Shown: positions 1 to 19,566, counted from the first letter of the stretch. The stretch: DNA of 19,695 bases from Deferribacterales bacterium (GCA_050253335.1 JBFWJG010000043.1:1-19695), one strand, 5' to 3'. Notes: generated by a model from the letters alone, not told the origin. A program made the numbers and translations.

Positions 1-217
1 ATTCCATGGATGGAATTGCGCCGTGCGAAATGAAGCCGAACCGAGTTCGGCGCGAATGTGTGAGCAGCAGGACAGGATGTACCTGCCTGCGGACTATCAT
101 CAAAACAGCATTACAATTCCATGGATGGAATTGCGCCGTGCGAAATGAAGCCGAACCGAGTTCGGCGCGAATGCGTGAGCAGCAGGACAGGATGTACCTG
201 TCTGCGAACTATCATCA
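1..217 (+). repeat. Tandem repeat, 115-bp period (copies 1-102 and 116-217; may extend left of the window); GGA-hairpin repeat family
   Basis: attccatggatggaattgcgccgtgcgaaatgaagccgaaccgagttcggcgcgaatg...actatcatca occurs at 1 and 116 with about 3 substitutions. Each unit has three hairpins. Confidence 0.95.
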
Positions 218-231
218 GATAAGGATTAGCA

Positions 232-1518
232 ATGAAAATACTTGTTGTAGGCGGCGGGGGCAGGGAACACGCCCTCGCATGGAAACTGGCTCAGAACCCG
301 AAAGTAGAGGAAATCTTCGTTGCTCCCGGCAACGGCGGAACCGCTCTGGAAAACAAAGTTACCAACATCCGCATAAAAGCCACAGACCTTAAAGAGCTTG
401 CGGATTTTGCACAGGCAAACGGCGTGGCGCTCACTGTTGTCGGCCCGGAAGATCCACTTGCCGCAGGCATAGTGGACTACTTTCAGGAACGGGGACTGCG
501 GGTCTTCGGCCCGTGCAGAGCGGCGGCGCAGATTGAGGCAAGCAAAGCATTCGCTAAGGAGATGATGGTCGCGGCGGGAATACCCACAGCTTTTTACAGG
601 GAGTTCACCGATTTTGAAGCGGCGAACGCCTATGTGCATGAGAAAGGCGCACCCATCGTTATCAAAGCGGACGGACTGGCGGCAGGCAAAGGCGTCACCG
701 TTGCCTTCACTGTGAAGGAAGCGGAAACCGCGCTGAAAGAGATCTTCATAGACAACATCTTCGGTGAGGCCGGAAGCAGGGTTGTGGTTGAGGAGTTCCT
801 CAACGGAGAGGAAGCCTCATACCTTGCCTTCTCAGACGGGGAAACCGTTCTGCCCATGGTTTCAAGTCAGGATCACAAGGCCGTTTACGACGGTGACAAA
901 GGCCCCAACACAGGCGGAATGGGTGCTTACTCCCCCGCCCCCGTGGTTACGGATGAAATATTCGATTTCGCAACGCAGAAAATAGCCTATCCCCTTATAA
1001 ATGAGTTTAAAAAGCGCGGCATAAAATATGTCGGCATAATTTACGCAGGGCTGATGATCACTGCTGACGGAGTAAAGGTGCTTGAGTTCAACGCCCGCTT
1101 CGGCGACCCTGAGACTCAGCCTGTGCTCACAAGGCTCAATTCCGATCTGCTTGAAATCTTCGAGGCGTGCATAGACGGCAGGCTTAATGAAATCAATGCG
1201 GACTGGAGCACGGAACCCGCCGTATGCGTTGTCATGGCCTCCGGCGGCTATCCCAAGGATTATGAAAAAGGCTATGAGATAAACGGCATAACGGAAGCAG
1301 ACAAAATCCCGGGCGTCAAGGTGTTCCATGCGGGAACCGCAACCGTGGATAAAACAACCGTAAACACCGGAGGACGCGTTCTCGGAGTTACCGCAAGGGG
1401 GAAAGACCTTGAGGAAACAATAGAGCGTGCCTACGAGGCGGTGAAGAAAATATACTGGACAAACGCCCACTTCCGTAAAGACATCGGAGCTAAGGCGCTC
1501 AGGAGGCTTAAAAAATGA
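232..1518 (+). CDS. purD: Phosphoribosylamine--glycine ligase
   Basis: 428 aa; GGGGREHAL, APGNGG, VVGPE, IKADGLAAGKGV, QDHK..GPNTGGMGAY, EFNARFGDPE, GGRVL motifs; AAGGA SD at 221-225. Confidence 0.98.
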   Translation: MKILVVGGGGREHALAWKLAQNPKVEEIFVAPGNGGTALENKVTNIRIKATDLKELADFAQANGVALTVVGPEDPLAAGIVDYFQERGLRVFGPCRAAAQIEASKAFAKEMMVAAGIPTAFYREFTDFEAANAYVHEKGAPIVIKADGLAAGKGVTVAFTVKEAETALKEIFIDNIFGEAGSRVVVEEFLNGEEASYLAFSDGETVLPMVSSQDHKAVYDGDKGPNTGGMGAYSPAPVVTDEIFDFATQKIAYPLINEFKKRGIKYVGIIYAGLMITADGVKVLEFNARFGDPETQPVLTRLNSDLLEIFEACIDGRLNEINADWSTEPAVCVVMASGGYPKDYEKGYEINGITEADKIPGVKVFHAGTATVDKTTVNTGGRVLGVTARGKDLEETIERAYEAVKKIYWTNAHFRKDIGAKALRRLKK

Positions 1519-2021
1519 GTAAAGTCGGCATCATTATGGGCAGCAAATCAGACCTCGGCATAGCCGAAGCTGCCATTAAGGTTCTGAAAGACTTCAATGT
1601 GCCCTGCGAAGTTATTGTTTCCAGCGCGCACAGAACCCCCGAACGCACAGGCGAATGGGCAAGAAGCGCCGAAAACAACGGCTTTTCGGTGATCATTGCT
1701 CTGGCGGGCGCTGCCGCTCACCTTGCGGGTGTTGTGGCCAGCGAGACAAACCTTCCCGTTGTGGCTGTTCCTGTTTCCGCCACAAGCTTAGGCGGGCTTG
1801 ACGCTCTGCTCTCCATGGTGCAGATGCCCGGCGGCATACCTGTCGCAACCATGGCAATCGGCAACGCCGGAGCAAAAAACGCCGCGCTTTTTGCCTGCCA
1901 GATAATAGCAAGGTCAGATGCCGCGCTTAACGCAAAGCTCAGAACCTACCGCGAAAACATGAAGCAGGAAGTCTACAAAGCTAACGAAGAAGTACAGGCG
2001 ATGCTGAACGGCGCACAGTAA
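1515..2021 (+). CDS. purE: N5-carboxyaminoimidazole ribonucleotide mutase
   Basis: 168 aa; IIMGSKSD, SAHRTP, AGAAAHLAG, GLDALLSMVQMPGGIPVAT; ATGA overlap with the purD stop. Confidence 0.97.
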   Translation: MSKVGIIMGSKSDLGIAEAAIKVLKDFNVPCEVIVSSAHRTPERTGEWARSAENNGFSVIIALAGAAAHLAGVVASETNLPVVAVPVSATSLGGLDALLSMVQMPGGIPVATMAIGNAGAKNAALFACQIIARSDAALNAKLRTYRENMKQEVYKANEEVQAMLNGAQ

Positions 2022-2022
2022 C

Positions 2023-2634
2023 ATGCTTATAATGAAGGCGGGTTCGTCCGCATTCGAAAAAATATTCTCTCTGGCGGGCTCAAGAAATGAGCCCGTCATC
2101 TTCCCCACAGACACAATCTACGGCATAGGAGCATCCGTCAGGGACATACCTGCTAATGAAAAGATCTATCAGATTAAAGGCAGGGAAGTGAACAAACCCT
2201 TTCCTGTGCTTGTCGGGTCAATAAAACAGGTTGAGGAAATAGCCGAACCATCGCAGGCGGCGCTTAATCTCCTCAGAAACTGCCCTTTTCCGTGCACACT
2301 GGTTCTTAAAGCAAAGGAAAACCTGCATCCCCTGATGACGCTGAACGGAAACGTTGCCGTCCGCCTGCCTAAGACTGAGCCTCTGGCGGGCTTTTTAAGG
2401 GAATACGGCGCTGTCACAGCCACAAGCGCAAATCTTGCAGGGGTTCCTTATGAAGGCGGGATAGAGAATATGGTCAAAACTTTTTGCACAAAGGTAAATT
2501 TCTATTTATACCAAAATAATACGGACACTTCACCCTCCGCCATTGTGGATTTTACCTTTTCTTTACCGCAAATTATACGTAAATCAGACATAATCAGCCT
2601 TGACATTATAATGTCATATGCTAATTTATGCTGA
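2023..2634 (+). CDS. tsaC: L-threonylcarbamoyladenylate synthase (TsaC/YrdC/Sua5 family)
   Basis: 203 aa; FPTDTIYG, KGR..NKP, VAVR.P, TSAN motifs. Confidence 0.88.
   Translation: MLIMKAGSSAFEKIFSLAGSRNEPVIFPTDTIYGIGASVRDIPANEKIYQIKGREVNKPFPVLVGSIKQVEEIAEPSQAALNLLRNCPFPCTLVLKAKENLHPLMTLNGNVAVRLPKTEPLAGFLREYGAVTATSANLAGVPYEGGIENMVKTFCTKVNFYLYQNNTDTSPSAIVDFTFSLPQIIRKSDIISLDIIMSYANLC
2600..2627 (+). promoter_or_regulatory. Candidate sigma70 promoter for the cytochrome gene, overlapped by a perfect 16-bp palindrome
   Basis: TTGACA at 2600-2605; weak TGnTAATTT at 2619-2627; palindrome TGACATTATAATGTCA at 2601-2616. Confidence 0.4.
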
Positions 2635-2657
2635 TAGATTTCATAAAGGAGAAGATT

Positions 2658-3008
2658 ATGAAAAAACTCATAGTTGCTATGATTGTCGTCTGTTTCGCAG
2701 TTGCTGCGGCAGTTGCGGCAGGTCCCGCAAAAATCGACCTCAAAACATGGGTAGCAGGCGAACCCTCCAAGCCCGCAGTTCAGTTCCCCCACGATGTGCA
2801 CCAGGCTAAAAACCAGTGTACAGACTGCCACGTTAAAGAAGACGGCGGCGCGCTGAAAAACCTTAAAGCAGGCGGAGAAGTTAACTTCAAAGGCGCTATC
2901 GGCGTTAAAAAGACCAAAAATGACGCTCATGACAACTTCTGCTGGGAATGCCACGTAGCGAAAAAAGTTCCTCAGGGCAAATCCTGCAACAAATGCCACG
3001 CGAAATAA
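2658..3008 (+). CDS. Periplasmic triheme class III cytochrome c (c7/PpcA-like)
   Basis: Start moved to ATG 2658 behind the AAGGAG SD. Signal peptide MKKLIVAM...AVAA; VQFPHDVH motif; three CxxCH motifs (CTDCH, CWECH, CNKCH); extra His in DAH. Confidence 0.9.
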   Translation: MKKLIVAMIVVCFAVAAAVAAGPAKIDLKTWVAGEPSKPAVQFPHDVHQAKNQCTDCHVKEDGGALKNLKAGGEVNFKGAIGVKKTKNDAHDNFCWECHVAKKVPQGKSCNKCHAK

Positions 3009-3035
3009 CAGCGGCATGACACTCTGAAAAACAAC

Positions 3036-3071
3036 AGCCCCGAAAGGCAATGCCTAGCGGGGCTTTTTTTT
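3036..3071 (+). terminator. Rho-independent terminator
   Basis: agccccg-aa-aggca-a-tgcct-ag-cggggct followed by a T tract, between convergent genes. Confidence 0.85.
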
Positions 3072-3089
3072 ATCTGAGCAAGCTGAAAC

Positions 3090-4391
3090 TTACTTCACCA
3101 GCGTTTCATTGCCCACAACAAGGTTCCTGCCTGCGTTTTTTGCCTGATACAGCCTTTCGTCAGCCAGATTAACCAGCTTTTCGCTGCATCTCGTTTCTGA
3201 AATGCAGGCAACGCCGAAACTGCTTGTTATGCGGGCGCTGATCCCTTTAAACACTGTTGATTCAATTGTTTTGCGCAGTTTTTCAGCCAGAGTGACGGCT
3301 CCCAGACAGTCGGTTTCAGGCAGAAGGATGATAAACTCCTCTCCGCCGTAGCGCGCCACACTGTCCGAATCTCTCGTGAGCGAGCAGGCAATAGAGGCTA
3401 TCTCTCTGATCACCTCGTCACCCAGAATGTGTCCGAACCTGTCATTCACTCTTTTAAAATGGTCTATGTCGAACAGGATCACCGAATAGGGATCTTTTGT
3501 CCTGCGGAATCTGCTGTCTTCCTTGCTGAGTGTTTCATAGAAGTAGCGCCTGTTGTATATTCCGGTGAGTCCGTCCGTAATTGCCTGAAGCTGAAGAAGC
3601 TTGTTTGTCTTCTCCATGTCGTCCAACAGGATTTTATTGAGAAGATGAGCCCTCAGACGCAGATAAAACTCCTCCACATCGAAAGGTTTATGAAAAAAGT
3701 CATTAACGCCGGAGTAAAAAAGGCTGTTGCGGACTTCCCTGTCATCGGAGACGGTCATGGCGATAATAGGTATATTTTTGAAGTTGTAGTCTTTTTTAAT
3801 AAACTTGACAAATTCGGCGCTGGTTTTGCCGGAGCCGAAGAAATAGTCAATAAGCACAATATCCGGCACATAGCTTCCGCTTTTAAGCAGATCCATTGCA
3901 CTGTCGATATTCTCCATGCATATTGGGGTTACTCCCGATTTTTTCAGAAGACCGCTGATAAAATTCCGCTGAAGTCTGCTGTCCTCCACAAGAAGAGCCT
4001 TCATCCCGCCGAAACAGCAGGTGTTCACAAAATCCTTAACATTCTGGAGGAAAATGCCCAGTCCTTCGCGGACGGAATTTTTGAGAAAATAACCGAATGC
4101 TCCGTTCTGAAAGCACTGTATACGCACGGAATCATCGATCAGGGAGGTAATTATCACCACAGTTGTCTGTTCAAACTTCTGTTCATATTTCATTTCCCTG
4201 CACAGATCCAGACCTTTGCCGTCCGGAAGAACCATGTCAAGGGTTACGACATCGTAATAGTTTTCAGCCAGTTTTTTTCTTGCCTCCGCCAGATCAGCCG
4301 CTTCTTCAACCTTATAATTGAATTTTTCCAGTTCGGTTCTGATGCTTTTGCGGATGAGCCTGCTGTCGTCAACAACTAATGCGTTTTCCAT
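3090..4391 (-). CDS. PleD-like response regulator diguanylate cyclase (REC-REC-GGDEF)
   Basis: 433 aa; two receiver domains (VVDD..LDMVLPDG; LVED..LIDY..KPF); TDGLTG.YNRR, DIDHFKRVND.FGH, RDSD I-site, RYGGEEF. Confidence 0.93.
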   Translation of the reverse strand: MENALVVDDSRLIRKSIRTELEKFNYKVEEAADLAEARKKLAENYYDVVTLDMVLPDGKGLDLCREMKYEQKFEQTTVVIITSLIDDSVRIQCFQNGAFGYFLKNSVREGLGIFLQNVKDFVNTCCFGGMKALLVEDSRLQRNFISGLLKKSGVTPICMENIDSAMDLLKSGSYVPDIVLIDYFFGSGKTSAEFVKFIKKDYNFKNIPIIAMTVSDDREVRNSLFYSGVNDFFHKPFDVEEFYLRLRAHLLNKILLDDMEKTNKLLQLQAITDGLTGIYNRRYFYETLSKEDSRFRRTKDPYSVILFDIDHFKRVNDRFGHILGDEVIREIASIACSLTRDSDSVARYGGEEFIILLPETDCLGAVTLAEKLRKTIESTVFKGISARITSSFGVACISETRCSEKLVNLADERLYQAKNAGRNLVVGNETLVK

Positions 4392-4556
4392 AGTTAGCCC
4401 GTGCTAATTCCTTTTAATAATAATGCAAATATAATCATTGCTAAAATTAATAATATCACCTGAATTAAAATTTTCACAGTGAAAAAAGACAGCACAAAAG
4501 CACAGAAACCGGCCGAATTCTTTAAATCTTTCGGAATGAACGGATAAAAAAATTGA

Positions 4557-5459
4557 TTATTTTGCTTTGGGGTGGGTTTTGTCGTAGACCCTGAGCAGAT
4601 CGCTGAGGTTCAGATGGGTGTATTTCTGCGTGGTTGAGAGCGCCTCATGCCCAAGAAGCTCCTGAATGGTGCGGAGATCTGCCCCGCCTTCAAGAAGATG
4701 CGTGGCGAAGGAATGCCTGAACGAATGTGGAGAGAAATCCAGCGGAAGACCCGCCTCTTTCAGATACTTCTCCACAATGCGCCCCACGGAGCGTTCGGTC
4801 AGGCGGGTGCCGTACTTGTTGAGAAAAACCGCGTCATCCTTCGGATAATGCCCCTCAGCGGGCACATCTGCTCGAACGCGCATATATTCCGCTATAAGTT
4901 CGCCCAGTATATCGCCAAGGGGGATTATGCGCTCCTTCTTCCCTTTCCCCCGCACGCGCATTCGCATTCCGCGCAGGTCAACATCGGAGAGATTCAGTCC
5001 GGTGAGCTCCGAAACACGCACACCCGTTCCGTACATAAGCTCCAGTATCAACGCATCGCGCATTCCGGCGGCTTCTGTTTTGTCAGGAAGTTCAAGAAGG
5101 CTCAGGAGGTCGTCTATATTAAAGACATTAAAGGCTTTTTTCTCTTTTTTCGGAAATTTAAGCATACGGGCGTGATTGTCATCGGTGATCCCTTTTTTAT
5201 GCAGAAACTTAAAGAATGATTTCAGGCAGGCTATCTTCCGTTCCGCTGTGGATTTTGAAATGTCCCTGTCAAAAAGCGAGGCGGCAAACCCGCGCAGAAT
5301 AAAGAAATCCGCAGATTCCACATCGCTTATTTTTTCAGTTTCCAGATATTCCGCCAACTCGGCCAGATCCCCTGAATACGCCTTGATTGTGTGCTCGGAG
5401 GCGTTTTTTTCGTTTTTCAGATACAAAATGAAATCGGCGATCGCGCGGTCTGTATTCAT
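4557..5459 (-). CDS. xerC: Tyrosine recombinase XerC
   Basis: 300 aa; TGVRVSEL, GKGKKER, HSFRHSFATHLL, QELLGH..TTQKYTH; downstream of topA-trmFO. Confidence 0.9.
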   Translation of the reverse strand: MNTDRAIADFILYLKNEKNASEHTIKAYSGDLAELAEYLETEKISDVESADFFILRGFAASLFDRDISKSTAERKIACLKSFFKFLHKKGITDDNHARMLKFPKKEKKAFNVFNIDDLLSLLELPDKTEAAGMRDALILELMYGTGVRVSELTGLNLSDVDLRGMRMRVRGKGKKERIIPLGDILGELIAEYMRVRADVPAEGHYPKDDAVFLNKYGTRLTERSVGRIVEKYLKEAGLPLDFSPHSFRHSFATHLLEGGADLRTIQELLGHEALSTTQKYTHLNLSDLLRVYDKTHPKAK

Positions 5460-5522
5460 AATTAATCCGCTCTTTATACCAAGAGTTCCTTTACTTTGTT
5501 CAGGATTTCACCATCCTGCGGT

Positions 5523-6833
5523 CTACATTTCAGTTTTATCCAGAAAAGCCTTCAAAGCGCCGACAGCCTTTTCCGCCATCATGCTTTTTTTCAGCTTCTT
5601 ATCCTTAATCCGCTCTTCCGGTGCGGGCAGCATACCGAAATGGAAGTTGCTGGGTACATACTTTTTGCGTGTCGCCTCGTATTTGTCGGTAACAAACAGA
5701 CCCAGCGAACCGAGGGCGGTTTCCCTCGGGAATGCTCTGCTTTCGCCTCCGGTGAGCCTCAGTGCGAGGTCATACCCTGCGATGAGTCCGGACGCTATGG
5801 ATTCCAGATAGCCTTCCACGCCTGTTATCTGTCCTGCGAAGTATAAGCCGTCCTCATATCTGAATCTGTCGTCCAGCTTTGAGGGGGAATTGATATATGT
5901 GTTGCGGTGAACAGAACCGTAGCGGAGAAATTCCGCATTTTCAAGCCCCGGAATCATCCGGAACACCCTTTTCTGCTCGCCTATCTTCATTTTGGTCTGG
6001 CAGCCCACAAGGTTGTAAGCAGTGCCCTCCTCATTCTCCTTGCGGAGCTGAAGAACGGCGTAGTATCTCTTATCTGTTTCGGGATGCTCAAGTCCCACAG
6101 GCTTCAGAGAGCCGAATGCGAGGGTTTTGCGCCCTCTGGCGGCCATTTCCTCTATGGGCATACACCCTTCAAACACGTTCATCTTCTCGAAGTCCTCAAA
6201 GGCAACCTTTTCAGAATCCATGAGCGCATCATAAAAAGCGTCGTATTCATCCTTTGTCATGGGACAGTTGAGATAATCGGGTTCGCCTTTTCCGTAGCGG
6301 CTTTTGAAGTAGCACTTGGTCATGTCCACTGAGTCGAAATCTATAATGGGCGATATGGCGTCAAAAAAATACAGTCCGCCGCCCATCAGGTTCTTTATTT
6401 TATCAGCGAGAGCATCGGAGGTAAGCGGCCCGCTTGCGATAATTAGCGGTCTGTCAGCGGGAATATCCCTGACCTCGCCGCGCACTATGCGCACGTTCTC
6501 CATTGCGGAAAGTGTTTCGGTGACTCTGGCGGAGAACATCTCCCTGTCCACTGCGAGCGAGCCACCCGCAGGAACCCTGCATTCTTTGGCAATGCGGATA
6601 AGCAGGCTGTCCATAAGCTCCAGCTCCGCCTTGAGAAGACCTGAGCCAGTATCCGCCGCCTCCGCCTTGAGGGAGTTGGAGCAGACAAGCTCAGCAAAAC
6701 CGCCGCCGGAATGGGCGGGGGTCATCACATCGGGGCGCATTTCATAAATAATCACAGGGATATTGCGTTTGGCAAGCTGATAAGCGGCCTCGCTCCCTGC
6801 GAGACCGCCACCTATTATATGAACGGGATTCAT
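5523..6833 (-). CDS. trmFO: Methylenetetrahydrofolate--tRNA-(uracil-5-)-methyltransferase TrmFO (Gid)
   Basis: 436 aa; IIGGGLAGSEAA, AELVCSNS, FEGCMPIE, RYGSVHRNTY, FAGQITGVEGY. Confidence 0.97.
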   Translation of the reverse strand: MNPVHIIGGGLAGSEAAYQLAKRNIPVIIYEMRPDVMTPAHSGGGFAELVCSNSLKAEAADTGSGLLKAELELMDSLLIRIAKECRVPAGGSLAVDREMFSARVTETLSAMENVRIVRGEVRDIPADRPLIIASGPLTSDALADKIKNLMGGGLYFFDAISPIIDFDSVDMTKCYFKSRYGKGEPDYLNCPMTKDEYDAFYDALMDSEKVAFEDFEKMNVFEGCMPIEEMAARGRKTLAFGSLKPVGLEHPETDKRYYAVLQLRKENEEGTAYNLVGCQTKMKIGEQKRVFRMIPGLENAEFLRYGSVHRNTYINSPSKLDDRFRYEDGLYFAGQITGVEGYLESIASGLIAGYDLALRLTGGESRAFPRETALGSLGLFVTDKYEATRKKYVPSNFHFGMLPAPEERIKDKKLKKSMMAEKAVGALKAFLDKTEM

Positions 6834-6840
6834 GAAAAGA

Positions 6841-9201: not shown

Positions 9202-9215
9202 ACACCCGCACCCGT

Positions 9216-9632: not shown

Positions 9633-10734
9633 CTGCGCCTCCGTTTATTCTGTATTTGCCGTCAATGTCGCAAATTATAACCCCTTCAAGCTCCAGCTCG
9701 CTGAGGATAACCATCATATCGCCGACTTTCATTGCTGCTGTGATGCAAAGCTCGTCTCTGTTCAGGGGGCCTTTTGCAAGGAGGTTATAGATTTTGTGCT
9801 TTTCAGGACTGTCAAAGACTATATTACTCTCTTCTTGTTTGTCAATGAATTTTCCCCTCGGCAGAAGGCGGCTGAACTCCTCCACAACGTCGTAATAGCT
9901 CTCTATGAGCCTTGCCCCGTTCTTGATCAGGTCGTTGGTTGCCCGGTTTCTGCTGTCCGGCGAGGCGGGCACTGCGAACACTTCCCTGCCCTGTTCGTTT
10001 GCGTATCTGGCGGTGATGAGTGAGCCGCTTTTTGTGGAGGCTTCCACAACAACAACACCGTGGGAAACTCCGCTTATTATCCTGTTGCGTATGGGGAAGT
10101 TGCGCGCGTGAGGCGGCTCGTCCAACGGAAATTCGCTTAAAAAACAGCCGGATTCGCATACCCTGTCCGCATATCTGGCGTTTGATTCGGGATAAAGGTT
10201 CATAAGCCCGCAGCCGAGAACCGCCGTTGTATATCCTTTTTTAAGGGCACCCCTGTGGGCGTGTATATCTATTCCGGCGGCAAAGCCGCTTACCACATTG
10301 AACCCGACCTCAGCCAGATCCTCCGCTAGTTTTTCGGTGTAGGCCATTGATGTGCGGGAGGCGTTTCTGGAACCCACAACAGCTATGCAGGGCATACGCA
10401 GGGGCTCAAGCCTCCCCCTGCTGAAAAGCACGGCGGGCGGGGAGTGAATCTCCCTGAGCATGGGCGGATAGCCGCCCTCTTCTATTGTTGTGATGTCTAT
10501 ATTATGTTTCCGTGCGAGATTTATCTGGTCTTCAACAAATTTCCTGTCCACATTGCGGCTTATCACCGCCTGTGCCTGACGCTGATTGAATCCGGCTTCG
10601 GCAAGCTCCGTCACTCCGAGGTCAAACACGCCGTCCAGCGTGCCCAGCCTCCCCAGAACTTTCGAAACTGTCTCATCGCTTATCCCTTTTACGGATTTCA
10701 GCGCGAGGTAAGTATAAGCCAGACGGAAATTCAA
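9607..10734 (-). CDS. dprA: DNA-processing protein DprA (Smf)
   Basis: 375 aa, TTG start; YP.MLREI..PP.VLF, AVVGSR, VSGFAAGID..AH, FPIRNRIISG, VVEA..KSGSLITA, GREVFAVP. Confidence 0.95.
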   Translation of the reverse strand: MNFRLAYTYLALKSVKGISDETVSKVLGRLGTLDGVFDLGVTELAEAGFNQRQAQAVISRNVDRKFVEDQINLARKHNIDITTIEEGGYPPMLREIHSPPAVLFSRGRLEPLRMPCIAVVGSRNASRTSMAYTEKLAEDLAEVGFNVVSGFAAGIDIHAHRGALKKGYTTAVLGCGLMNLYPESNARYADRVCESGCFLSEFPLDEPPHARNFPIRNRIISGVSHGVVVVEASTKSGSLITARYANEQGREVFAVPASPDSRNRATNDLIKNGARLIESYYDVVEEFSRLLPRGKFIDKQEESNIVFDSPEKHKIYNLLAKGPLNRDELCITAAMKVGDMMVILSELELEGVIICDIDGKYRINGGAGGKICDCT

Positions 10735-10746
10735 TATGCCTTTCCT

Positions 10747-11883
10747 TTATTCAAAATACTTGTGTATGCCGTAGGCAAGCCTGATCCACATGTTCGCCGA
10801 AGCCGTAACAGTAGGGATCGGCACGTAAAAATCTCCGCTGTGCAGCGGCGGATGGCTCCCCTTCTCATTTGCCCCCGTCCAGAGAAAAACCCCTTTCACA
10901 AGCCTCACATACTCGGAAAAGTCCTCACCGCCGAGGGTGAGCTTGTCATAGGGAATGCGGGGAAGATTCTCGGCATCCGCAAGACCGCATATGAACGCCG
11001 CAAGGGAAGGGTCATTTATCACGGGATGCGTGCCGTCCTTTATATCAAGCTCAATCTTAACTCCGTAGAGTTCTTCAATGCTCAATGCGAGGGATTTCAG
11101 CCCCTTTTCGATAACCGCCTTAACTTCCGGATGGAAATAGCGGAAAGTGCCTTTCAGCTCGACTTTATCAGGGATAATGTTGTCCGCGCTTCCGCCGTGT
11201 ATGCTACCGAAGGATATAAGGCCGGGGAGTGTCGGGTCTTTCAGACGGCTGACAATCATCTGCGCCTTTGTCACATAGTCCGCGGCGGCGGTGATTGTGT
11301 CATTGCCGAGGTGGGGCATGGCGGCGTGGGTGGCTCTGCCTGTGAAGGTGAGCGCTATATGGTGGGAACCTGCCATGCAGGGGCCTGATTTAACAGCGGA
11401 TTTCCCCATGGGGATCTCGTTTTCGGCATGGGCGGCGAAGATGCAGTCCACACCGGCAAGACAGCCCTTTTCTATCATAAACTTAGCACCGCTGACTATC
11501 TCTTCCGCGGGCTGAAAAATGTAGCGGATATTTACTTTAGGTTTGGTTTCGCTCCTCTGCACAGCTTCCAGAAGAAGGAGAAGGGCGGCCATGTTGTGAT
11601 GATGCCCGCAGAGGTGCTTATATTCAGTTTTTTCGGGATTGGCAGGAAGAGCGTCGATATCCGCCCTGAAGGCGACTGTTTTTTCAGCGCCGAAATCCAG
11701 AGTGCCGTAGCAGCCTGTATCAAAAACATGGGAAGGGGTTATCCCGTTTTTCTCCAGAAAGGACACTATGTATTTTGTTGTCTGGTATTCCTTGAATGAC
11801 GGTTCCGCAAGAACAGCCAGATCGTCCATGAGCCTTACGGCGAGCCCCTGATCGGGCTGAATTCGGTCTGCCGGCATGAGCAT
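10747..11883 (-). CDS. M20 family amidohydrolase (peptidase M20D-like)
   Basis: 378 aa; RADIDALP, HLCGH, FQPAEE, GRATHAAMPH, GGEDFS, PLHS; strong GGAGGA SD. Confidence 0.9.
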   Translation of the reverse strand: MLMPADRIQPDQGLAVRLMDDLAVLAEPSFKEYQTTKYIVSFLEKNGITPSHVFDTGCYGTLDFGAEKTVAFRADIDALPANPEKTEYKHLCGHHHNMAALLLLLEAVQRSETKPKVNIRYIFQPAEEIVSGAKFMIEKGCLAGVDCIFAAHAENEIPMGKSAVKSGPCMAGSHHIALTFTGRATHAAMPHLGNDTITAAADYVTKAQMIVSRLKDPTLPGLISFGSIHGGSADNIIPDKVELKGTFRYFHPEVKAVIEKGLKSLALSIEELYGVKIELDIKDGTHPVINDPSLAAFICGLADAENLPRIPYDKLTLGGEDFSEYVRLVKGVFLWTGANEKGSHPPLHSGDFYVPIPTVTASANMWIRLAYGIHKYFE

Positions 11884-11941
11884 ATCCTCCTCACCTTTTG
11901 CTAATTTACTTACTGAAAAACATTAAGGTCAAGAAAAAAAA

Positions 11942-12019
11942 CGTCACTCTGAGCAAAGCGAAGAGTCTCCGGAAGTATATTTACAGCGGCTGAGATGCTT
12001 CACTCCGTTCAGCATGACG
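11942..12019. repeat. Inverted pair of REP-like GTCA...TCTC elements
   Basis: cgtcactctgagcaaagcgaagagtctc (11942-11969) and the inverted copy at 11992-12019 (reverse complement cgtcatgctgaacggagtgaagcatctc), 20/28 identical; third copy at 17475-17507. Confidence 0.8.
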
Positions 12020-12068
12020 ATTGATGCGATCTCAGCCACCCAAGATTTTCCATCCGTGGAAGTATACG

Positions 12069-12113
12069 TTAATTATATTCGAAGACCTCGGTTCCTGCGG
12101 GAGCTGTCGGTTC
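12069..12113 (-). repeat. Diverged duplicate of the last 45 nt of lolA
   Basis: 42/45 identical to 12507-12551; translates EPTAPAGTEVFEYN* versus EPTVPAGTEVFEYN*. Confidence 0.93.
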
Positions 12114-12123
12114 TGTTTTAACA

Positions 12124-12502
12124 ACATAAATCCGTGCGTCCTGCCGGATTTATGTACACGCTCGCGGTTTGCAAAGCAAACCTTCGCTGCGCACGGCGCA
12201 TTGTCTTCTCTTAATAATCCAAAATTTGCCGTCCATGGAAATTTTGGATACACGCTCGCGGCGGGATGAACCCGCCTTCGCTGCGCACGGCGCATTGTCT
12301 TCTCTTAATAATCCAAAATTTGCCGTCCATGGAAATTTTGGATACACGCTCGCGGCGGGATGAACCCGCCTTCGCTGCGCACGGCGCATTGTCTTCTCTT
12401 AATAATCCAAAATTTGCCGTCCATGGAAATTTTGGATACACGCTCGCGGCGGGATGAACCCGCCTTCGCTGCGCACGGCGCATTTCCATCCTTGGAAATG
12501 TG
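12124..12502 (-). repeat. 94-bp tandem array of the GGA-hairpin repeat family (four cores)
   Basis: tacacgctcgc starts at 12155, 12249, 12343 and 12437. The units are identical except for the central 17-nt hairpin of the first core. Confidence 0.97.
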
Positions 12503-12506
12503 CGGC

Positions 12507-13106
12507 TTAATTATATTCGAAGACCTCTGTGCCTGCGGGAACTGTCGGTTCAAATACTTTTTTATCTATGTCGGCGTTAAGCTGGATGTTGGTGAAGGTC
12601 ACCTCGGTTCTGTTGCCCGTGGGGTCTTCGCTGATAACTTTTGTTATCCTGCTGCCGTCTGTCTCAACTTTTATATATCTCACGCCTATGTCGCTCAGGG
12701 GCACAAGGTTCAGAACATTCTCCCCGCTCAGCGTCACATGGAAGTTTTTGCGGATGTTGCCTATGTCAAGCATAAGCCTTGTTATGGCATTCTGGTTGCC
12801 TTCGGCGTTTTTCTGGCGGACAAGCTGGCGTATTTCGCTGTCGTAGTAGTCCACTCTGTCGGATGTGAAAAGATAATACTGTCTGTAAGGATAGCTGTAG
12901 TCCCACAGGGCGCGGTATTTGTTGATAACGTAAATCCTGCCCACATATTCGTCCTTGCCGAAGTTTTCTATCTCGGTAATCTGTCTGAAATCAGCCCTGT
13001 AGCTTTGCAGGTTGCTGAATGAACCGAGTATTTCGTCTATTGTTGCGCCGAACGCGCTGACGCTTATGAATAAAGCCGTCATTATCATGATTATTTTTTT
13101 CTTCAT
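12507..13106 (-). CDS. lolA: Outer-membrane lipoprotein carrier protein LolA family
   Basis: 199 aa; signal peptide; ADFRQ, G.IYV, WDYSYP..Q, D..GNRT...F..I..N, F....P.G..V motifs; GGAGG SD. Confidence 0.8.
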   Translation of the reverse strand: MKKKIIMIMTALFISVSAFGATIDEILGSFSNLQSYRADFRQITEIENFGKDEYVGRIYVINKYRALWDYSYPYRQYYLFTSDRVDYYDSEIRQLVRQKNAEGNQNAITRLMLDIGNIRKNFHVTLSGENVLNLVPLSDIGVRYIKVETDGSRITKVISEDPTGNRTEVTFTNIQLNADIDKKVFEPTVPAGTEVFEYN

Positions 13107-13131
13107 TCAAACCTCCGCCTGAATCAGCCGT

Positions 13132-13159
13132 ATCATATTCCGACATTTATAAGTGTCAA
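13132..13159 (-). promoter_or_regulatory. Candidate sigma70 promoter of lolA
   Basis: Minus-strand TTGACA (13159-13154), 16-nt spacer, TATGAT (13137-13132). Confidence 0.55.
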
Positions 13160-13433
13160 AGGTTTTATTAAGTTTCAAAAAAACAGCCGGAACCGCATCA
13201 GGGTCAATATATGCATTCTTAATAGAAATATTCATTTATAATCAATATTTAACACCATGCCAAAAATATACCCCTGTTTAATTATCGATAAAACCTATCA
13301 TAACCACCCCCATTCCTTAAAAAATAATTCAAAACACCATTCTTCATCATTTTTTATTATCTATACCTATTTATACACTGTTTCAATATTATGGAGCCGG
13401 AAAAATAAGCCGTATACCCTTATATTTTAGGGC

Positions 13434-13462
13434 TTGACATCAATAATACATTATTTTATTAT
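13434..13462 (+). promoter_or_regulatory. Sigma70 promoter of pyc
   Basis: TTGACA, 17-nt spacer, TATTAT; 30 nt upstream of the ATG; GAGGA SD. Confidence 0.7.
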
Positions 13463-13492
13463 CGAATACTTTAACAATAACGAGGATAGCTT

Positions 13493-16400
13493 ATGCGCAT
13501 AAAGAAGCTTATGTCTGCCAACAGGGGCGAAATTGCCATCAGAACTTTCCGTGCCTGTACCGAGCTCGGAATCCGCACTGTCGCGGTTTATTCCACGGAA
13601 GACCGTTACTCCCTCCACAGATATAAAGCAGATGAAGCTTACCATATAGGACGCGGGCTTGACCCGGTGGCCGCATACCTCAATATTGACGAAATAGTTG
13701 AACTCGCCGTGCGCGAAAACATAGACGCCATACACCCCGGCTACGGCTTCCTTGCCGAAAACGCTGACTTCGCCGCAGCCTGCGAGGACAAGGGGATCAT
13801 TTTTGTCGGTCCCTCCCCCGAAACAATCAGAATCTTCGGAGACAAGAAAAGCGCCAAGGATCTCGCCCTCTCCTGCGGAGTGCCTGTAATCAGAGGCTCC
13901 AAAGGGGTGATAAAAGACCTTGCGGAGGCGAAGAAAACCGCCGCCGACATAGGTTTTCCTGTCCTGCTCAAAGCCATTGCAGGCGGAGGGGGAAGAGGAA
14001 TCCGCATAGCAAGGGACGACAAGGAACTTGCGGACAACTTTGACTCCGCCAAAAGCGAAGCCCTCAAGGCATTCGGCAACGGCGATATTATAATTGAGAA
14101 ATATATCGAAAAGCCCAAACATATAGAGGTTCAGCTTCTGGGTGACAGAGGCGGAAACGTAATCCACCTTTTCGAGCGTGACTGTTCGGTTCAGCGCAGG
14201 CATCAGAAGCTTATTGAGATAGCCCCCTCCATCAATGTTCCGCAGACAACCCTTGATAAAATGTACGAGGCATCCATAGCCATCGGCAAGGCATCCGGCC
14301 TCAAAAACGCCGCCACTGTCGAATTTCTTGTGGACAAAAACAACGACTTCTACTTTCTGGAGGTCAACCCCCGCATTCAGGTTGAGCACACGGTAACAGA
14401 GCTCATAACCGGAATAGATATAGTCCAGAGCCAGATTTTCATCAGCGCCGGCGAGCTTATGTCCGACCCGAATACAGACATTAAGTCTCAGGACGCAGTA
14501 ACAAAATCCGGCTACGCTATCCAGTGCCGTGTAACCACGGAAGACCCCGCAAACAATTTCATGCCTGACACAGGGGAAATAGAGGCCTACAGGATAGCCA
14601 CAGGCTTCGGTGTGCGTCTGGACGCGGGCAACGGCTTCGCCAACGCTAAAATAACGCCTCATTACGACTCGCTTCTGGTTAAGGTTTCAACCCATTCTCT
14701 TCAGTTTCACAGAGCAGTGAGCAAAATGAGCCGCTCCCTGAGCGAGTTCAGGATCAGAGGGGTGAAAACCAACATACCTTTCCTTGAAAAAGTAATAAAC
14801 CACAAGGATTTCCTTGAGGGCAACATATGCACCACCTTTGTGGACAATACGCCGGAGCTTTTCCAGTTTCCCGTACCCAAGGACAGGGCAACCAAGGCGC
14901 TTATGTTCCTTGCCAATAATATTGTGAACAACCCTTCCGGAGTGAAGCTCACCCCTGAACGCATACTGCCGAAGACCGATGCTCCTCTGATCCCTTACGG
15001 AGAAAAAATACCCTCCGGCACAAGGGACATACTCATGCGCAGCGGTTTGCAGGGAGTGATGGATCACATCCGCAATTCAAAAGAGATCCTCTTCACCGAC
15101 ACAACATTCAGAGACGCCCACCAGTCGCTCCTCGCCACCAGAGTGCGCACAAACGACATGCTGAAAATCTCCGATGCTTACGCGAGGCACCTCAGCCAGC
15201 TTTTCTCTCTGGAGATGTGGGGCGGCGCGACATTCGATGTGGCATACAGATTCCTCAAGGAATCGCCGTGGGACAGGCTCCGCCTTCTCCGTGAACGCAT
15301 TCCGAATGTCCTTTTCCAGATGCTTCTGCGCGCCTCAAACGCCGTGGGCTACACCAATTACCCCGATAACGTGGTAAAGGCGTTCATCAAGCAGGCCTCA
15401 GAATCGGGCATAGATGTTTTCAGGATTTTCGACTGCTTCAACTGGACGGAACAGATGATCCCCGCCATTGAGGAAGTGAAGAAAAACGGCCGCATAGCGG
15501 AGGCGGCAATCTGCTACACAGGGGACATAGAAAACCCCGCCAAAACAAAATACTCCCTCAAATACTATACAGGACTCGCAAAAGAGCTCGCTGACGCAGG
15601 AACCGACATAATAGGAATCAAAGACATGGCGGGGCTTCTCAAGCCTTACGCCGCTAAAACCCTTGTGAAAGCCATCAAGGAGGAGACAGGACTCCCTGTC
15701 CACTTCCACACCCACGACACAAGCGGAAACGGCGAGGCCGCAGTGCTCATGGCAATCGAAGGCGGAGCGGACATTGTTGACGCCGCCATAAGCTCCATGA
15801 GCGGGCTAACGAGCCAGCCGAACCTGAACTCAATACTCGCCGCCACTGCCTTCACCAAAAAAGCGTCCTCTGTTGATGCTGAATGGAGCCAGAAGGTTTC
15901 CGACTATTTTGAGCGTGTGCGCCGCTACTACTTCCCTTTTGAAAGCGGGCTCAAATCCGCTACAGCGGAGGTCTACAAGCATGAGATCCCCGGCGGGCAG
16001 TATTCCAACCTCATAGTTCAGGTTGAGGCGATGGGGCTTATCGACCGCTGGGAAGAGGTGCGCAACATGTACGCACAGGTGAACGCGGAACTGGGGGACA
16101 TAATAAAAGTTACCCCTTCATCCAAAGTTGTGGGCGATTTTGCACTATTTCTCGTTAGAAACAATCTTTCCGTTGACGATATATATGACAAGAGTGATAC
16201 ACTTTCATATCCGGATTCCGTTGTGTCCTTCTTTCAGGGGATGCTCGGACAGCCTTACGGAGGCTTTCCATACAGACTGCAGAAGGCTGTTCTGAAGGAT
16301 GAAAAGGCAATAACAGAGCGTCCGGGCGACGCACTGCCTCCCTTCGATTTCGAGGCTGCCCGCTCGGAGCTGAAAAAACTGTTCGGACGAGACTTCAGCA

Positions 16401-16927
16401 ATGAAGAAGTTCTGGCGTATGCCCTTTATCCGGCTGTGTTCAAGGATTTCGTAAAATTCACTGCCGAATACGGAGACCCTTCAGTTTTTGATACGAAATC
16501 TTTCTTCTACCCCTTACGCAAGGAAGAAGAGATAGAAGTGAAAATTGAACAGGGCAAAACGCTGATAATAAAGTACCTCGGCGAAAGTATGCCTGATGAG
16601 AAGGGTTACCGTAAGGTTTACTTTGAGCTGAACGGAACCCCCCGCACGGTTAAAATAAAAGATAACACATTGACAGATATTATAAAGTCAAATATTAAAG
16701 GTGAACTGGGCAACCCGCAGGACATATGCGCCACAATGCCCGGAACAATAACCAAAATAAACGTGAAAAAAGGCGACAAAATCAGCAAAGGAGATCTCCT
16801 TGCCGTGACAGAAGCCATGAAAATCGAGACCAAAATTTCCGCCGCATCCGGCGGTGAAGTTGCAGAAGTCCTCCTTAACCAAGGGGATAAGATTGAGGCG
16901 GGCGACCTCATAATAAAACTGAGCTGA
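13493..16927 (+). CDS. pyc: Pyruvate carboxylase (single chain)
   Basis: 1144 aa; biotin carboxylase domain (ANRGEIA, HPGYGFLAEN, RDCSVQRRHQK), carboxyltransferase domain (DTTFRDAHQSL, WGGATFD, HTHDT, KVTPSSK), C-terminal biotin carrier domain EAMKIE. Confidence 0.98.
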   Translation: MRIKKLMSANRGEIAIRTFRACTELGIRTVAVYSTEDRYSLHRYKADEAYHIGRGLDPVAAYLNIDEIVELAVRENIDAIHPGYGFLAENADFAAACEDKGIIFVGPSPETIRIFGDKKSAKDLALSCGVPVIRGSKGVIKDLAEAKKTAADIGFPVLLKAIAGGGGRGIRIARDDKELADNFDSAKSEALKAFGNGDIIIEKYIEKPKHIEVQLLGDRGGNVIHLFERDCSVQRRHQKLIEIAPSINVPQTTLDKMYEASIAIGKASGLKNAATVEFLVDKNNDFYFLEVNPRIQVEHTVTELITGIDIVQSQIFISAGELMSDPNTDIKSQDAVTKSGYAIQCRVTTEDPANNFMPDTGEIEAYRIATGFGVRLDAGNGFANAKITPHYDSLLVKVSTHSLQFHRAVSKMSRSLSEFRIRGVKTNIPFLEKVINHKDFLEGNICTTFVDNTPELFQFPVPKDRATKALMFLANNIVNNPSGVKLTPERILPKTDAPLIPYGEKIPSGTRDILMRSGLQGVMDHIRNSKEILFTDTTFRDAHQSLLATRVRTNDMLKISDAYARHLSQLFSLEMWGGATFDVAYRFLKESPWDRLRLLRERIPNVLFQMLLRASNAVGYTNYPDNVVKAFIKQASESGIDVFRIFDCFNWTEQMIPAIEEVKKNGRIAEAAICYTGDIENPAKTKYSLKYYTGLAKELADAGTDIIGIKDMAGLLKPYAAKTLVKAIKEETGLPVHFHTHDTSGNGEAAVLMAIEGGADIVDAAISSMSGLTSQPNLNSILAATAFTKKASSVDAEWSQKVSDYFERVRRYYFPFESGLKSATAEVYKHEIPGGQYSNLIVQVEAMGLIDRWEEVRNMYAQVNAELGDIIKVTPSSKVVGDFALFLVRNNLSVDDIYDKSDTLSYPDSVVSFFQGMLGQPYGGFPYRLQKAVLKDEKAITERPGDALPPFDFEAARSELKKLFGRDFSNEEVLAYALYPAVFKDFVKFTAEYGDPSVFDTKSFFYPLRKEEEIEVKIEQGKTLIIKYLGESMPDEKGYRKVYFELNGTPRTVKIKDNTLTDIIKSNIKGELGNPQDICATMPGTITKINVKKGDKISKGDLLAVTEAMKIETKISAASGGEVAEVLLNQGDKIEAGDLIIKLS

Positions 16928-17033
16928 CGAAGGCTTTTGACGGAAGTCCCCCTTCACTGACGAAAAGTCCGTCAGCTCTCGGCGTAGTCTGAATTGGGCG
17001 ATTCAGGCTAAGTTCCTTCCAGCTTGAGGGTTA

Positions 17034-17070
17034 AGGCGGTTCCGGTTTTCCGGGGCCGCCTCCCCTCTTT
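17034..17070 (+). terminator. GC-rich hairpin, possible terminator downstream of pyc
   Basis: aggcggttccgg-tttt-ccggggccgcct; only a weak T tract follows. Confidence 0.45.
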
Positions 17071-17077
17071 ACTATTA

Positions 17078-17292
17078 ATGCCAAATTCCCTTCCATGGGA
17101 ATTTGACATACACGCTCGCGGTCTGCAAAGCAGACCTTCGCTTCGCACGGCGCAGTTCCATCCTTGGAACTGTGACAATTAGCCGAACTCAGGTTCCGCT
17201 GAAATCTCCGCAATAAATTGCTCCGATTCGCTCCACGGACACGTCCATGTGTCTGTTGCTTCGCGCGGCGCAGTTCCGTCCCTAGAACTGTG
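17078..17292 (-). repeat. GGA-hairpin repeat family: full copy (17078-17174) plus a partial copy (17235-17292)
   Basis: Core tacacgctcgc-ggtctgcaaagcagacc-ttcgcttcgcacggcgca at 17109-17154, flanked by hairpins with TCC loops (GGA on the minus strand). Confidence 0.92.
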
Positions 17293-17334
17293 AGGCTATT
17301 TCAAATAAAGGTATTTAGTTTAAACGGCAATAAC

Positions 17335-17369
17335 TTCCCCCTTTGACAAAGGGGGAGAGAGGGGGATTT
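17335..17369. repeat. CCCCCTTT-N-AAAGGGGG..AGGGGGATTT type palindromic REP-like element
   Basis: tccccctttgacaaaggggga perfect inverted repeat followed by gagagggggatttt. Confidence 0.65.
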
Positions 17370-17474
17370 TCATAGTTCTGAACAGATATCCGCTGTGTTT
17401 TTATCAAACGAAAATAATACCTTCTTTACGCAAGGCTGTTTCACCGCCGCGTTCTCCTCATAGACACAGCAATC

Positions 17475-17507
17475 CGTCATGCTGAACCCGAAGGGTGAAG
17501 CATCTCA
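17475..17507 (+). repeat. GTCA...TCTC REP-like element, single copy
   Basis: cgtcatgctgaac-ccgaagg-gtgaagcatctca matches the reverse complement of 11991-12019 except in the central loop. Confidence 0.85.
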
Positions 17508-17520
17508 AACTTCCCGCTCC

Positions 17521-17591
17521 AAAAACTACATCCTGTGTTTTTTACGCACACGCTCGCGCCGTGGTAAACACGGCTTCGCTTCGCACGCGCA
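17521..17591 (-). repeat. GGA-hairpin repeat family copy immediately downstream of uvrC
   Basis: Hairpin aaaaactacatcctgtgttttt, then core cacacgctcgc-gccgtggtaaacacggc-ttcgcttcgcacgcgca (17547-17591). Confidence 0.9.
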
Positions 17592-17602
17592 CAGAGTGAA
17601 GT

Positions 17603-19402: not shown

Positions 19403-19523
19403 CGGGATTATTATAATAAATAAATCATTTTTGTGGAGAGGATAATTTAATCATGGCGTGAGCGTTAAAATAAAATGCGAAAGAGATTGAGTCACTGCGG
19501 GGAGCAAGGCGGTGCGGAAGTAG

Positions 19524-19540
19524 AGGGGGCATTGCCCCCT
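19524..19540. other. GC-rich hairpin downstream of the MCP gene (terminator or REP-like)
   Basis: agggggc-att-gccccct, extendable by gtag/ctgc; no U tract on the minus strand. Confidence 0.4.
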
Positions 19541-19566
19541 GCTGCTTTTCGCATATTCAAAAAGTT

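What the first reader, a model, noticed from the sequence alone, without database searches (positions are those of the whole stretch)
4..17536. Dispersed repeat family displaying 15 CsrA/RsmA-consensus GGA hairpin loops, always on an adjacent gene's coding strand
Seen in sequence, + strand loops: CCATGGATGG (4-13, 119-128) and ACAGGATGT (72-80, 187-195). Minus strand loops: CCACGGATGG (12050-12059), GCAGGACGC (12136-12144), CCATGGACGG (12229, 12323, 12417), CCAAGGATGG (12486, 17158), CCATGGAAGG (17089), ACATGGACGT (17241), CTAGGGACGG (17276), ACAGGATGT (17528). The stems differ with compensatory changes (caattcca/tggaattg, catttcca/tggaaatg, cagttcca/tggaactg; long stems of unrelated sequence). 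A-GGA and the closing G are invariant, the 5' C is kept in all but one, and both N positions of CANGGANG vary. The GGA strand matches purD(+), lolA(-) and uvrC(-). Established knowledge: CsrA/RsmA bind CANGGANG or CAGGANG in hairpin loops, as in CsrB and RsmY/Z. Inference: this may be a genome-dispersed, expandable set of CsrA sites in UTRs, acting as a distributed sponge or stability module in place of a single CsrB-type sRNA. I do not know of a description in this lineage.
Basis: partly seen in the sequence, partly recalled or inferred. Interest (0 to 1): 0.85.

Follow-up and report, generated by a model that had tools for sequence, protein, structure and literature searches.

The report
CsrA-loop repeat carrying gene ends
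The hairpins are parts of a small folded repeat found about 160 times in this genome; its two loops look like docking sites for the RNA regulator CsrA, and it seems to spread by travelling with a spare copy of the end of the gene in front of it, but CsrA binding itself is untested.

Summary
All 15 loops are real but come from only three loci of one ~100-nt element: GGA hairpin H1, small hairpin, tandem-G·A stem, GGA hairpin H3. The genome has 162 copies at 102 loci, with strong covariation, csrA-fliW and relatives in 25 of 68 genomes of the phylum. 'Always on a coding strand' fails: sense:antisense is 44:9 here and 52:19 in a congener, and antisense copies keep GGA equally well. No Y1, IS110 or reverse transcriptase gene was found in this genome. 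Best reading: a non-autonomous element that homes into gene ends by recombination and binds CsrA when transcribed; a host-selected sponge is unproven. Not Rfam TwoAYGGAY, but the sponge idea is in print for it. The scan noted this family, and gene-end duplication in other genomes, before.

The parts
1..99 (+). element copy, cut by the contig start; H1 loop 4-13, H3 loop 72-80
   Evidence: covariance model R1, 72.2 bits
112..214 (+). full element copy upstream of purD; H1 loop 119-128, H3 loop 187-195; 94% identical tandem partner of 1-113
   Evidence: (80.7 bits)
232..1518 (+). purD (context, downstream sense neighbour)
   Evidence: Pfam GARS_N/A/C
12048..12061 (-). lone H1 remnant behind the duplicated lolA end (loop 12050-12059)
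12069..12113 (-). stranded second copy of the last 45 nt of lolA including the stop codon; 2 synonymous and 1 non-synonymous difference; begins 23 nt after the last GGA loop
   Evidence: (D10, 93%)
12117..12205 (-). element copy without H1; H3 loop 12136-12144
   Evidence: 83.6 bits
12210..12299 (-). element copy without H1 (94-nt tandem unit); H3 loop at 12229
12304..12393 (-). element copy without H1 (94-nt tandem unit); H3 loop at 12323
12398..12502 (-). full element copy 5 nt behind the lolA stop; H1 loop 12486-12495, H3 loop 12417-12426
   Evidence: 103.8 bits; z -4.6
12507..13106 (-). lolA; its last 45 nt (12507-12551) are the duplicated piece
   Evidence: Pfam LolA
13493..16927 (+). pyruvate carboxylase (context; the 17071-17600 copies are antisense to it)
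17071..17174 (-). full element copy; H1 loop 17158-17167, H3 loop 17089-17098; H3 identical at the orthologous site in G027 and G029
   Evidence: (97 bits)
17216..17292 (-). degenerate chimera: H1 (loop 17276-17285) plus half core, then the first hairpin (loop 17241-17250) of a sister GGA family
   Evidence: (27.3 bits)
17509..17600 (-). element copy without H1 directly behind the uvrC stop; H3 loop 17528-17536
   Evidence: 70.7 bits
17603..19402 (-). uvrC (context, upstream sense neighbour)
   Evidence: Pfam UvrC_RNaseH, GIY-YIG

Best explanation
A non-autonomous mobile element of about 100 nt that folds on its GGA strand into H1 (7-bp stem, ANGGAN loop), a 3-bp hairpin, a G-C/tandem-G·A stem capped by a variable hairpin, and H3 (about 13 bp with a bulge under an AGGAN or ANGGAN loop) [shown]. 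It sits mostly just behind stop codons or just before ribosome sites and turns over fast between species [shown]. Its repeating unit often includes the last 18-69 nt of the upstream gene, joined to a fixed element end 16-29 nt behind the H3 loop [shown]. This captured gene end is a homology handle: a tandem or circular [gene end + element] piece recombines into an empty allele, rebuilds the gene end and strands the old one behind the element [inferred from synonymous-only divergence and empty alleles; DNA uptake via ComEC/DprA is a guess]. This favours sense orientation behind conserved coding ends. When transcribed, the two loops bind the host's CsrA dimer, the motif that also controls its flagellin leaders [inferred]; the ~300 sites then titrate CsrA as a side effect or as a later host use. 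Component odds: gene-end-carrying mobility 0.85; CsrA binds the RNA 0.75; titration matters to the cell 0.3.
For: Structure. Copy number and turnover: 162 copies/102 loci; exact core 89, 81, 51, 214 copies in the four genomes of the genus; 37 of 65 orthologous gaps filled in both species, 27 without the core here; lolA gap holds 4, 1 and 0 cores in three species. Gene-end duplication: 19 of 54 sense gaps, 1 of 27 antisense, 1 of 453 gaps without any GGA element (Fisher p 2e-19 and 0.002); repeated in G029: 20 of 80 sense, 0 of 45 antisense, 0 of 26 without. Junction 16-29 nt behind the last loop in 26 of 29 measurable copies; differences 37 synonymous, 13 not, against 0.21 expected (30:10 with one copy per locus, p 3e-7 against 0.35); 9:2 in G029. 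Two G029 insertions face clean empty sites in this genome that continue like the downstream copy (L096/C41, L032/C1). CsrA side; consensus RUACARGGAUGU and AC/GU-closed loops (PMC7652899, passages). ComEC in 16 of 16 family genomes, dprA in the window.
Against: No mobilising enzyme and no intermediate seen; homing explains spread between alleles of one locus, not first arrival at ~100 loci. 35 of 54 sense gaps show no gene-end copy. Many stranded copies are followed by an H1 remnant, so some are simply eroded local tandem duplications. CsrA binding and transcription of the GGA strand are untested; the RNA runs were contigs without strand. H1 has 7-8 contiguous pairs whereas most selected CsrA ligands had four or fewer (PMC7652899), and CsrA homologues differ beyond GGA recognition (PMC13443453, abstract). 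16 of 145 upstream-sense loci lie behind a terminator-like hairpin. Gene calls are from my own hexamer model.
Confidence: 0.5

Rival explanations
1. Host-selected distributed CsrA sponge or mRNA-stability module: copies are kept at each locus because their RNA titrates CsrA or protects the transcript, replacing a CsrB-type sRNA in a FliW lineage; duplications are by-products.
For: Sense bias 39:8 and 8:0 for two GGA families against 12:14 and 21:17 for a control repeat; all 25 genomes with model hits have csrA, 0 of 8 without csrA have hits; plan conserved across two families of the order; mRNA-borne CsrA titration is shown in Campylobacter (PMC4894983, passages).
Against: Loops equally intact in antisense copies; 17-27% of co-directional loci antisense; copy number varies fourfold within the genus and is near zero for the same probe in sister genera; 35 of 60 csrA genomes lack hits; kin are not independent and only 3 of the 8 csrA-less genomes are over 90% complete.
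Confidence: 0.25
2. Single-stranded-DNA element: the GGA strand folds as DNA (lagging-strand template, displaced strand, or incoming transforming DNA) and the loops are read by a DNA-processing protein of HUH or Ssn type acting in trans; the likeness to CsrA sites is incidental.
For: Fixed 3' junction; loop conservation independent of transcription; in G029 20 of 28 convergent-gap loci lie on the leading strand and where transcription and replication cues conflict the split is 9:7; G-U/A-C asymmetry fits DNA too; Ssn nucleases cut hairpin repeats in incoming DNA (PMC11893778, passages).
Against: No Y1 transposase in any of the five high-copy genomes, no small GIY-YIG gene in this genome, G028, G029 or G030, and such genes in relatives are flanked mostly by CGTC-type repeats; replication bias not reproduced here (7:8); the loop pattern matches CsrA at every fixed position, with both loop lengths.
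Confidence: 0.15
3. RNA-templated insertion: transcripts ending at the element's 3' end are reverse-transcribed, primed inside the target gene, and resolved by homology in the gene end; CsrA protects the RNA intermediate.
For: Sense bias, fixed 3' end, long variable duplications, loop selection at element level.
Against: No reverse transcriptase in 12 of 16 family genomes, including this one, G027, G029 and G030; synonymous divergence between the two gene ends needs a foreign allele, not the cell's own RNA.
Confidence: 0.1

Closest known systems
TwoAYGGAY RNA motif (Rfam RF01731; PMC2864571; CsrA binding proposed in PMC4333381; extended in bioRxiv 10.64898/2026.09.22.753630)
   Same: Two GGA-loop hairpins, one short and one long with a bulge; tandem G·A pairs; up to ~200 copies per genome with large copy-number variation; proposed Csr/Rsm sponge and mobile-like expansion, untested.
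   Different: No Rfam match (best 22.4 bits vs 43); the two hairpins flank a conserved core instead of sharing a basal stem; head-to-tail arrays, 0 of 102 loci with mixed orientation instead of divergent doublets; gene-end capture not mentioned in the passages I read; FliW-type host.
CsrB/CsrC and RsmX/Y/Z small RNAs; flaA mRNA as CsrA antagonist in Campylobacter jejuni (PMC7652899, PMC4894983)
   Same: AC/GU- or C/G-closed ANGGAN and AGGAN loops; FliW-CsrA host in which an mRNA can titrate CsrA.
   Different: Not one gene with many sites but two sites per unit at ~100 loci; no own promoter or terminator seen on the GGA strand; mobile.
[quoted passage not shown]
   Same: Insert flanked by 18-69-bp direct repeats of variable length, single copy at the empty site, no transposase on the insert.
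   Different: Insert is a 100-nt non-coding element, not restriction-modification genes; the repeat is a protein-coding 3' end whose two copies differ like alleles; one junction is fixed by the element.
REP/BIME/REPIN with RAYT, and CGTC-tagged REP/SRM with Ssn nucleases (PMC3733652, PMC11893778)
   Same: High-copy intergenic hairpin repeats, enriched behind genes and rare between divergent genes (24 convergent vs 2 divergent loci); share intergenic mosaics with CGTC repeats here.
   Different: No GTAG/CGTC tag, polar multi-hairpin fold with free stem sequence, strand bias that the CGTC repeats of this genome lack, no RAYT or small GIY-YIG gene in this genome.

Membership tests
TwoAYGGAY (RF01731) | score at or above the Rfam gathering cut-off (43 bits) | tested here: not met
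   best 22.4 bits in the genome, 70 candidates scored; no match in the window
TwoAYGGAY (RF01731) | two hairpins with AYGGAY-type terminal loops | tested here: met
   ANGGAN or AGGAN loops in 107 of 138 H1 and 169 of 184 H3; consensus wider than AYGGAY
TwoAYGGAY (RF01731) | the two hairpins are sequential and emerge from a common basal stem | tested here: not met
   loops about 68 nt apart with two other helices between; flanks of 197 copies pair no better than mismatched flanks (-4.76 vs -4.91 kcal/mol)
TwoAYGGAY (RF01731) | tandem G·A pairs in a stem | tested here: inconclusive
   invariant GA/GA closed by a GC/GC pair of pairs with AT/AT and GT/AC (3) variants among 381 units; few independent events
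TwoAYGGAY (RF01731) | divergent doublets (Pseudomonas form) | tested here: not met
   0 of 102 loci of mixed orientation; sister genus G030 does show opposed pairs
CsrB/RsmY-type sRNA | stand-alone transcript with promoter and intrinsic terminator | tested here: inconclusive
   consensus scan finds no terminator on the GGA strand and no promoter in front of the lolA or uvrC arrays; no RNA ends available
CsrB/RsmY-type sRNA | GGA hairpin loops matching the CsrA consensus, CsrA in the host | tested here: met
CsrB/RsmY-type sRNA | binds and sequesters CsrA | not testable with these tools
   needs EMSA or CLIP
REP/REPIN-RAYT | Y1 (RAYT) transposase in the carrier genome, flanked by the repeat | tested here: not met
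   0 of 5 high-copy genomes have PF01797 (draft assemblies can miss it, G029 is complete); no GGA element at 8 Y1 loci inspected in relatives
SRM/Ssn repeat system | small single-domain GIY-YIG gene flanked by the repeat | tested here: not met
   only UvrC matches PF01541 in this genome; of 17 small GIY-YIG loci in relatives one has a full GGA element nearby, most have CGTC-type flanks (by eye)
Insertion with long, variable target duplication | long direct repeats of variable length flanking the insert, single copy at the empty site | tested here: met
   clean empty sites seen for two loci
Insertion with long, variable target duplication | cargo of restriction-modification genes | tested here: not met
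   insert is non-coding

The most novel reading that the evidence does not exclude
An enzyme-free selfish RNA/DNA element, old within this order, that homes into the 3' ends of housekeeping genes by carrying a replacement gene end and whose copying cycle itself depends on CsrA bound to its two loops; its ~300 sites act together as the missing CsrB of a FliW-type bacterium and couple flagellin control to bulk transcription. This would also explain what TwoAYGGAY-like repeats are and how they spread.
Probability: 0.15. Interest if true: 0.9.

Novelty: new variant of a known kind. Interest (0 to 1): 0.55.

Why it matters
Twin-GGA repeats have been catalogued since 2010 with no shown function and no known way of spreading. 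This family gives both questions a handle: a host with one csrA, fliW and two flagellin leaders as internal control, ~160 natural variants, and a footprint of mobility (fixed 3' end, captured allelic gene end) that predicts a recombination route without a transposase. If CsrA binds, it extends RNA-based CsrA antagonism to a lineage where none is described in the searches I ran.

Tried and rejected
GNA-triloop DNA minihairpin: the free N in GCGNAGC (A48 C42 G27 T24) first suggested a DNA-only fold; rejected because the flanking bases covary with other partners and sister genera break the minihairpin but keep the cross-pairing. First wobble count showed no asymmetry but included stem ends; the internal-pair count did. 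Replication-strand bias: 20 of 28 in G029, 11:6 then 7:8 in this genome depending on how skew was computed: inconclusive. Mobilising enzymes: Y1, RT, IS110 (1 weak hit in 16), Y2/IS91 (none, but the control rang nowhere, so uninformative), small GIY-YIG. 178 neighbouring proteins were judged by eye from their N-termini, not by Pfam: housekeeping, one integrase-like. No element in viral contigs, phages or plasmids; no viral csrA relative. Metagenome scan: 34 loci, 28 from one assembly of a close relative, 6 chance; unmatched neighbouring ORFs were not annotated. The all-genome pattern scan was too loose: 0 of 120 loci were real elements, so the range outside the phylum is untested. Single motif hits in csrA-less G019 and G021 lie inside a gene. 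RNA runs: four contig-only runs of one study, small shares; the repeats show high summed depth because all copies map, and strand and level cannot be read. An element beside csrA in G030 is not taken as evidence given ~100 motif hits there. Rfam RefA5 hit E 0.066 is chance.
Full report
1. Observation. All 15 loops are at the stated places. They belong to three intergenic loci: upstream of purD at the contig start, behind lolA, and between convergent pyc and uvrC (genes by Pfam; pyc is on the + strand). A covariance model built from 29 hand-picked copies of a congener finds nine units in the window: four with both hairpins (one cut by the contig start), four lacking H1, one degenerate chimera; the loop at 12050 is a lone remnant. 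Intergenic CA(N)GGANG hairpins number 314 in the 2.58-Mb genome against 4-33 for eight control triplets; 222 lie in this family, and part of the other 92 belong to sister families with other cores.

2. Anatomy. The unit is H1 (7 bp, GGA loop), a CGC-CGT-GCG hairpin, a free base, a two-pair stem closing an invariant GA/GA, a variable 15-nt hairpin, and H3 (about 13 bp; a one-base bulge under the apical two pairs in 118 of 133 distinct stems). Stem sequences are free but paired: 17 of 22 pairs show changes on both sides in 65 distinct rows and 22 of 31 in the 29-row subset. Those alignments were chosen to have both GGA loops, so loop conservation was counted apart, on hairpins found by stem only: 107 of 138 H1 and 169 of 184 H3 (pooled over this genome, the fetched G029 loci and ten other loci). 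Three window copies fold far better than shuffles on both strands (z -3.2 to -6.8), so energy does not pick the strand; internal G-U pairs outnumber A-C pairs 32:12 on the GGA strand.

3. Distribution. 162 copies at 102 loci, arrays of one to five, never of mixed orientation. The exact core is in 4 of 68 genomes of the phylum, all of this genus, with 51-214 copies. The model finds relatives in 25 of 68 (14 of 16 in this family, 11 of 21 in one other; at most 58 candidates scored per genome), with the same order of hairpins and other cores. csrA is in 60 of 68: all 25 carriers have it, the 8 genomes without it have no hit, but 35 csrA genomes have none either. Of 89 G029 arrays, 65 could be paired with a gap here: 37 filled in the same orientation, 27 without the core, 1 an artefact of two opposed elements.

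4. Orientation. In co-directional gaps the GGA strand is sense at 44 and antisense at 9 loci here, 52 and 19 in complete G029 (106 loci). CGTC-type repeats of the same genome split 12:14 and 21:17; a sister GGA family 8:0. So the bias is real and specific but not absolute. Antisense copies keep intact loops in 27 of 28 cases, sense copies in 124 of 137, which argues against selection acting only through the local mRNA, unless the copies are young. A leading-strand bias appears in G029 and not clearly here. Gene calls come from my own hexamer model, which reproduced the window's 14 annotated genes.

5. Footprint of mobility. In 28 of 68 arrays with clean flanks the upstream flank recurs downstream, against 0.5% of mismatched pairs. 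Asked directly, the last 70 nt of a gene recur in the gap behind it in 19 of 54 gaps with a sense element, 1 of 27 with an antisense element, 6 of 36 with sister-family or lone GGA hairpins and 1 of 453 with none; G029 gives 20 of 80, 0 of 45 and 0 of 26 (some loci are orthologous, so not fully independent). The copy is 18-69 nt long, includes the stop codon and starts 16-29 nt behind the last GGA loop in 26 of 29 measurable cases. Differences between the working and the stranded end are 37 synonymous to 13 non-synonymous (stop-to-stop changes counted as synonymous; 30:10 with one copy per locus). Neutral decay of the stranded copy would give about 0.35 at most, so both ends have been coding alleles. 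In the window this is lolA 12507-12551 against 12069-12113. Two G029 insertions face empty sites here that continue like the stranded copy, old stop codon included. Other stranded copies are followed by an H1 remnant, that is, eroded tandem units; in front of xerC two congeners have an element between short direct repeats and this genome has the single copy. No Y1 transposase, IS110 or reverse transcriptase was found in this genome or in complete G029.

6. CsrA. csrA follows fliW on contig C12; the protein aligns with solved CsrA/RsmE structures over the RNA-binding region (which residues bind RNA is recalled). Both flagellin-like genes (identified by their N- and C-terminal sequence, recalled, and mutual BLAST) have a CAAGGAAG hairpin and a second GGA in the ribosome site. 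The commonest H3 tip, AC-AGGAU-GU, fits the selected consensus (PMC7652899, passages). mRNA-borne titration exists in a FliW host (PMC4894983, passages). Binding and expression were not testable: the four RNA runs are contigs of one study with small shares.

7. How it most likely works. Shown: fold, dispersal, turnover, polar capture of gene ends, allelic divergence. Inferred: the [gene end + element] unit, made by a head-to-tail duplication with a fixed 3' end, moves between strains as a tandem or circular piece and recombines into the conserved gene end, which leaves the gene intact and favours sense copies behind stop codons; transcribed copies bind CsrA. What makes the fixed end, and how new loci are first reached, is unexplained. 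Rivals: host-selected sponge (0.25), single-stranded-DNA element read by a nuclease in trans (0.15), RNA-templated insertion (0.1).

8. Known relatives and novelty. TwoAYGGAY is the nearest kind. I saw: passages of PMC4333381 (CsrA motif match, untested); outline, passages and the whole results section of bioRxiv 10.64898/2026.09.22.753630 (up to 202 copies, sponge and mobile-like expansion proposed; its supplementary figures on other phyla were not seen and may bear on range); supplement hits of PMC2864571; passages of PMC3733652, PMC11893778 and PMC2853133; abstract of PMC13443453. The element fails TwoAYGGAY membership on score and basal stem but works like it in loop display. Ten literature searches showed no description of this family or of gene-end capture by a GGA repeat; the library lacks most subscription journals. 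The scan had noted this family on another contig (which names the genus Geovibrio; not checked), TwoAYGGAY-like repeats in at least 12 genomes and gene-end duplication at hairpin elements elsewhere, once for a GGA element (looked up after my own count). Verdict: real, a new variant of a known but unexplained kind; interest 0.55.

Noticed in passing
window 11942-12019 (-) and 17475-17506 (-): CGTC-tagged palindromic repeats interleaved with the GGA arrays; no strand bias genome-wide. One chimera on contig C11 joins a CGTC half to the right half of the GGA element at the shared CGNAGYGAAG word.
   Followed up: partly
window 17335-17369 (-) and 16921-16985: Two further repeat types (CCCCCT...AGGGGG hairpin; CGTCAGCTC...GAGCTGACG hairpin) in the pyc-uvrC gap; the second is conserved in G027 and G029.
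   Followed up: no
L359-L378, L128 (relatives in the phylum): Small single-domain GIY-YIG genes flanked by CGTC-type repeats, like the Ssn nucleases of PMC11893778; at L128 the gene's own 3' end recurs with the repeats upstream. Absent from this genome, which still has the repeats.
   Followed up: partly
L353 (G000:C96:1-700): Tandem 199-bp units with two GGA hairpins and a different core directly behind a 5S rRNA gene: would be very highly transcribed if read through.
   Followed up: partly
G000 contigs C8, C9, C15, C21, C23, C32, C41, C45, C121: Sister family B with the same H1...H3 plan, a longer core, 8:0 sense bias, and gene-end copies in 3 of 10 gaps, one with 7 of 7 differences synonymous.
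   Followed up: partly
window 5459-5523 versus L044, L153: Empty site in front of xerC; two congeners carry an element there between short direct repeats that include the xerC start codon.
   Followed up: yes
G000:C10:5203-8307 and 16599-19679: Two very long flagellin-like genes (about 1030 aa), each with a two-site CsrA-type leader.
   Followed up: partly
window 2628-3008 (+): 126-aa secreted protein with three CxxCH motifs (multiheme cytochrome c-like); no Pfam hit at E 1e-8.
   Followed up: no
L366 (G016): A small GIY-YIG frame apparently inside a 23S rRNA gene, possibly an intron or intervening element (by eye).
   Followed up: no
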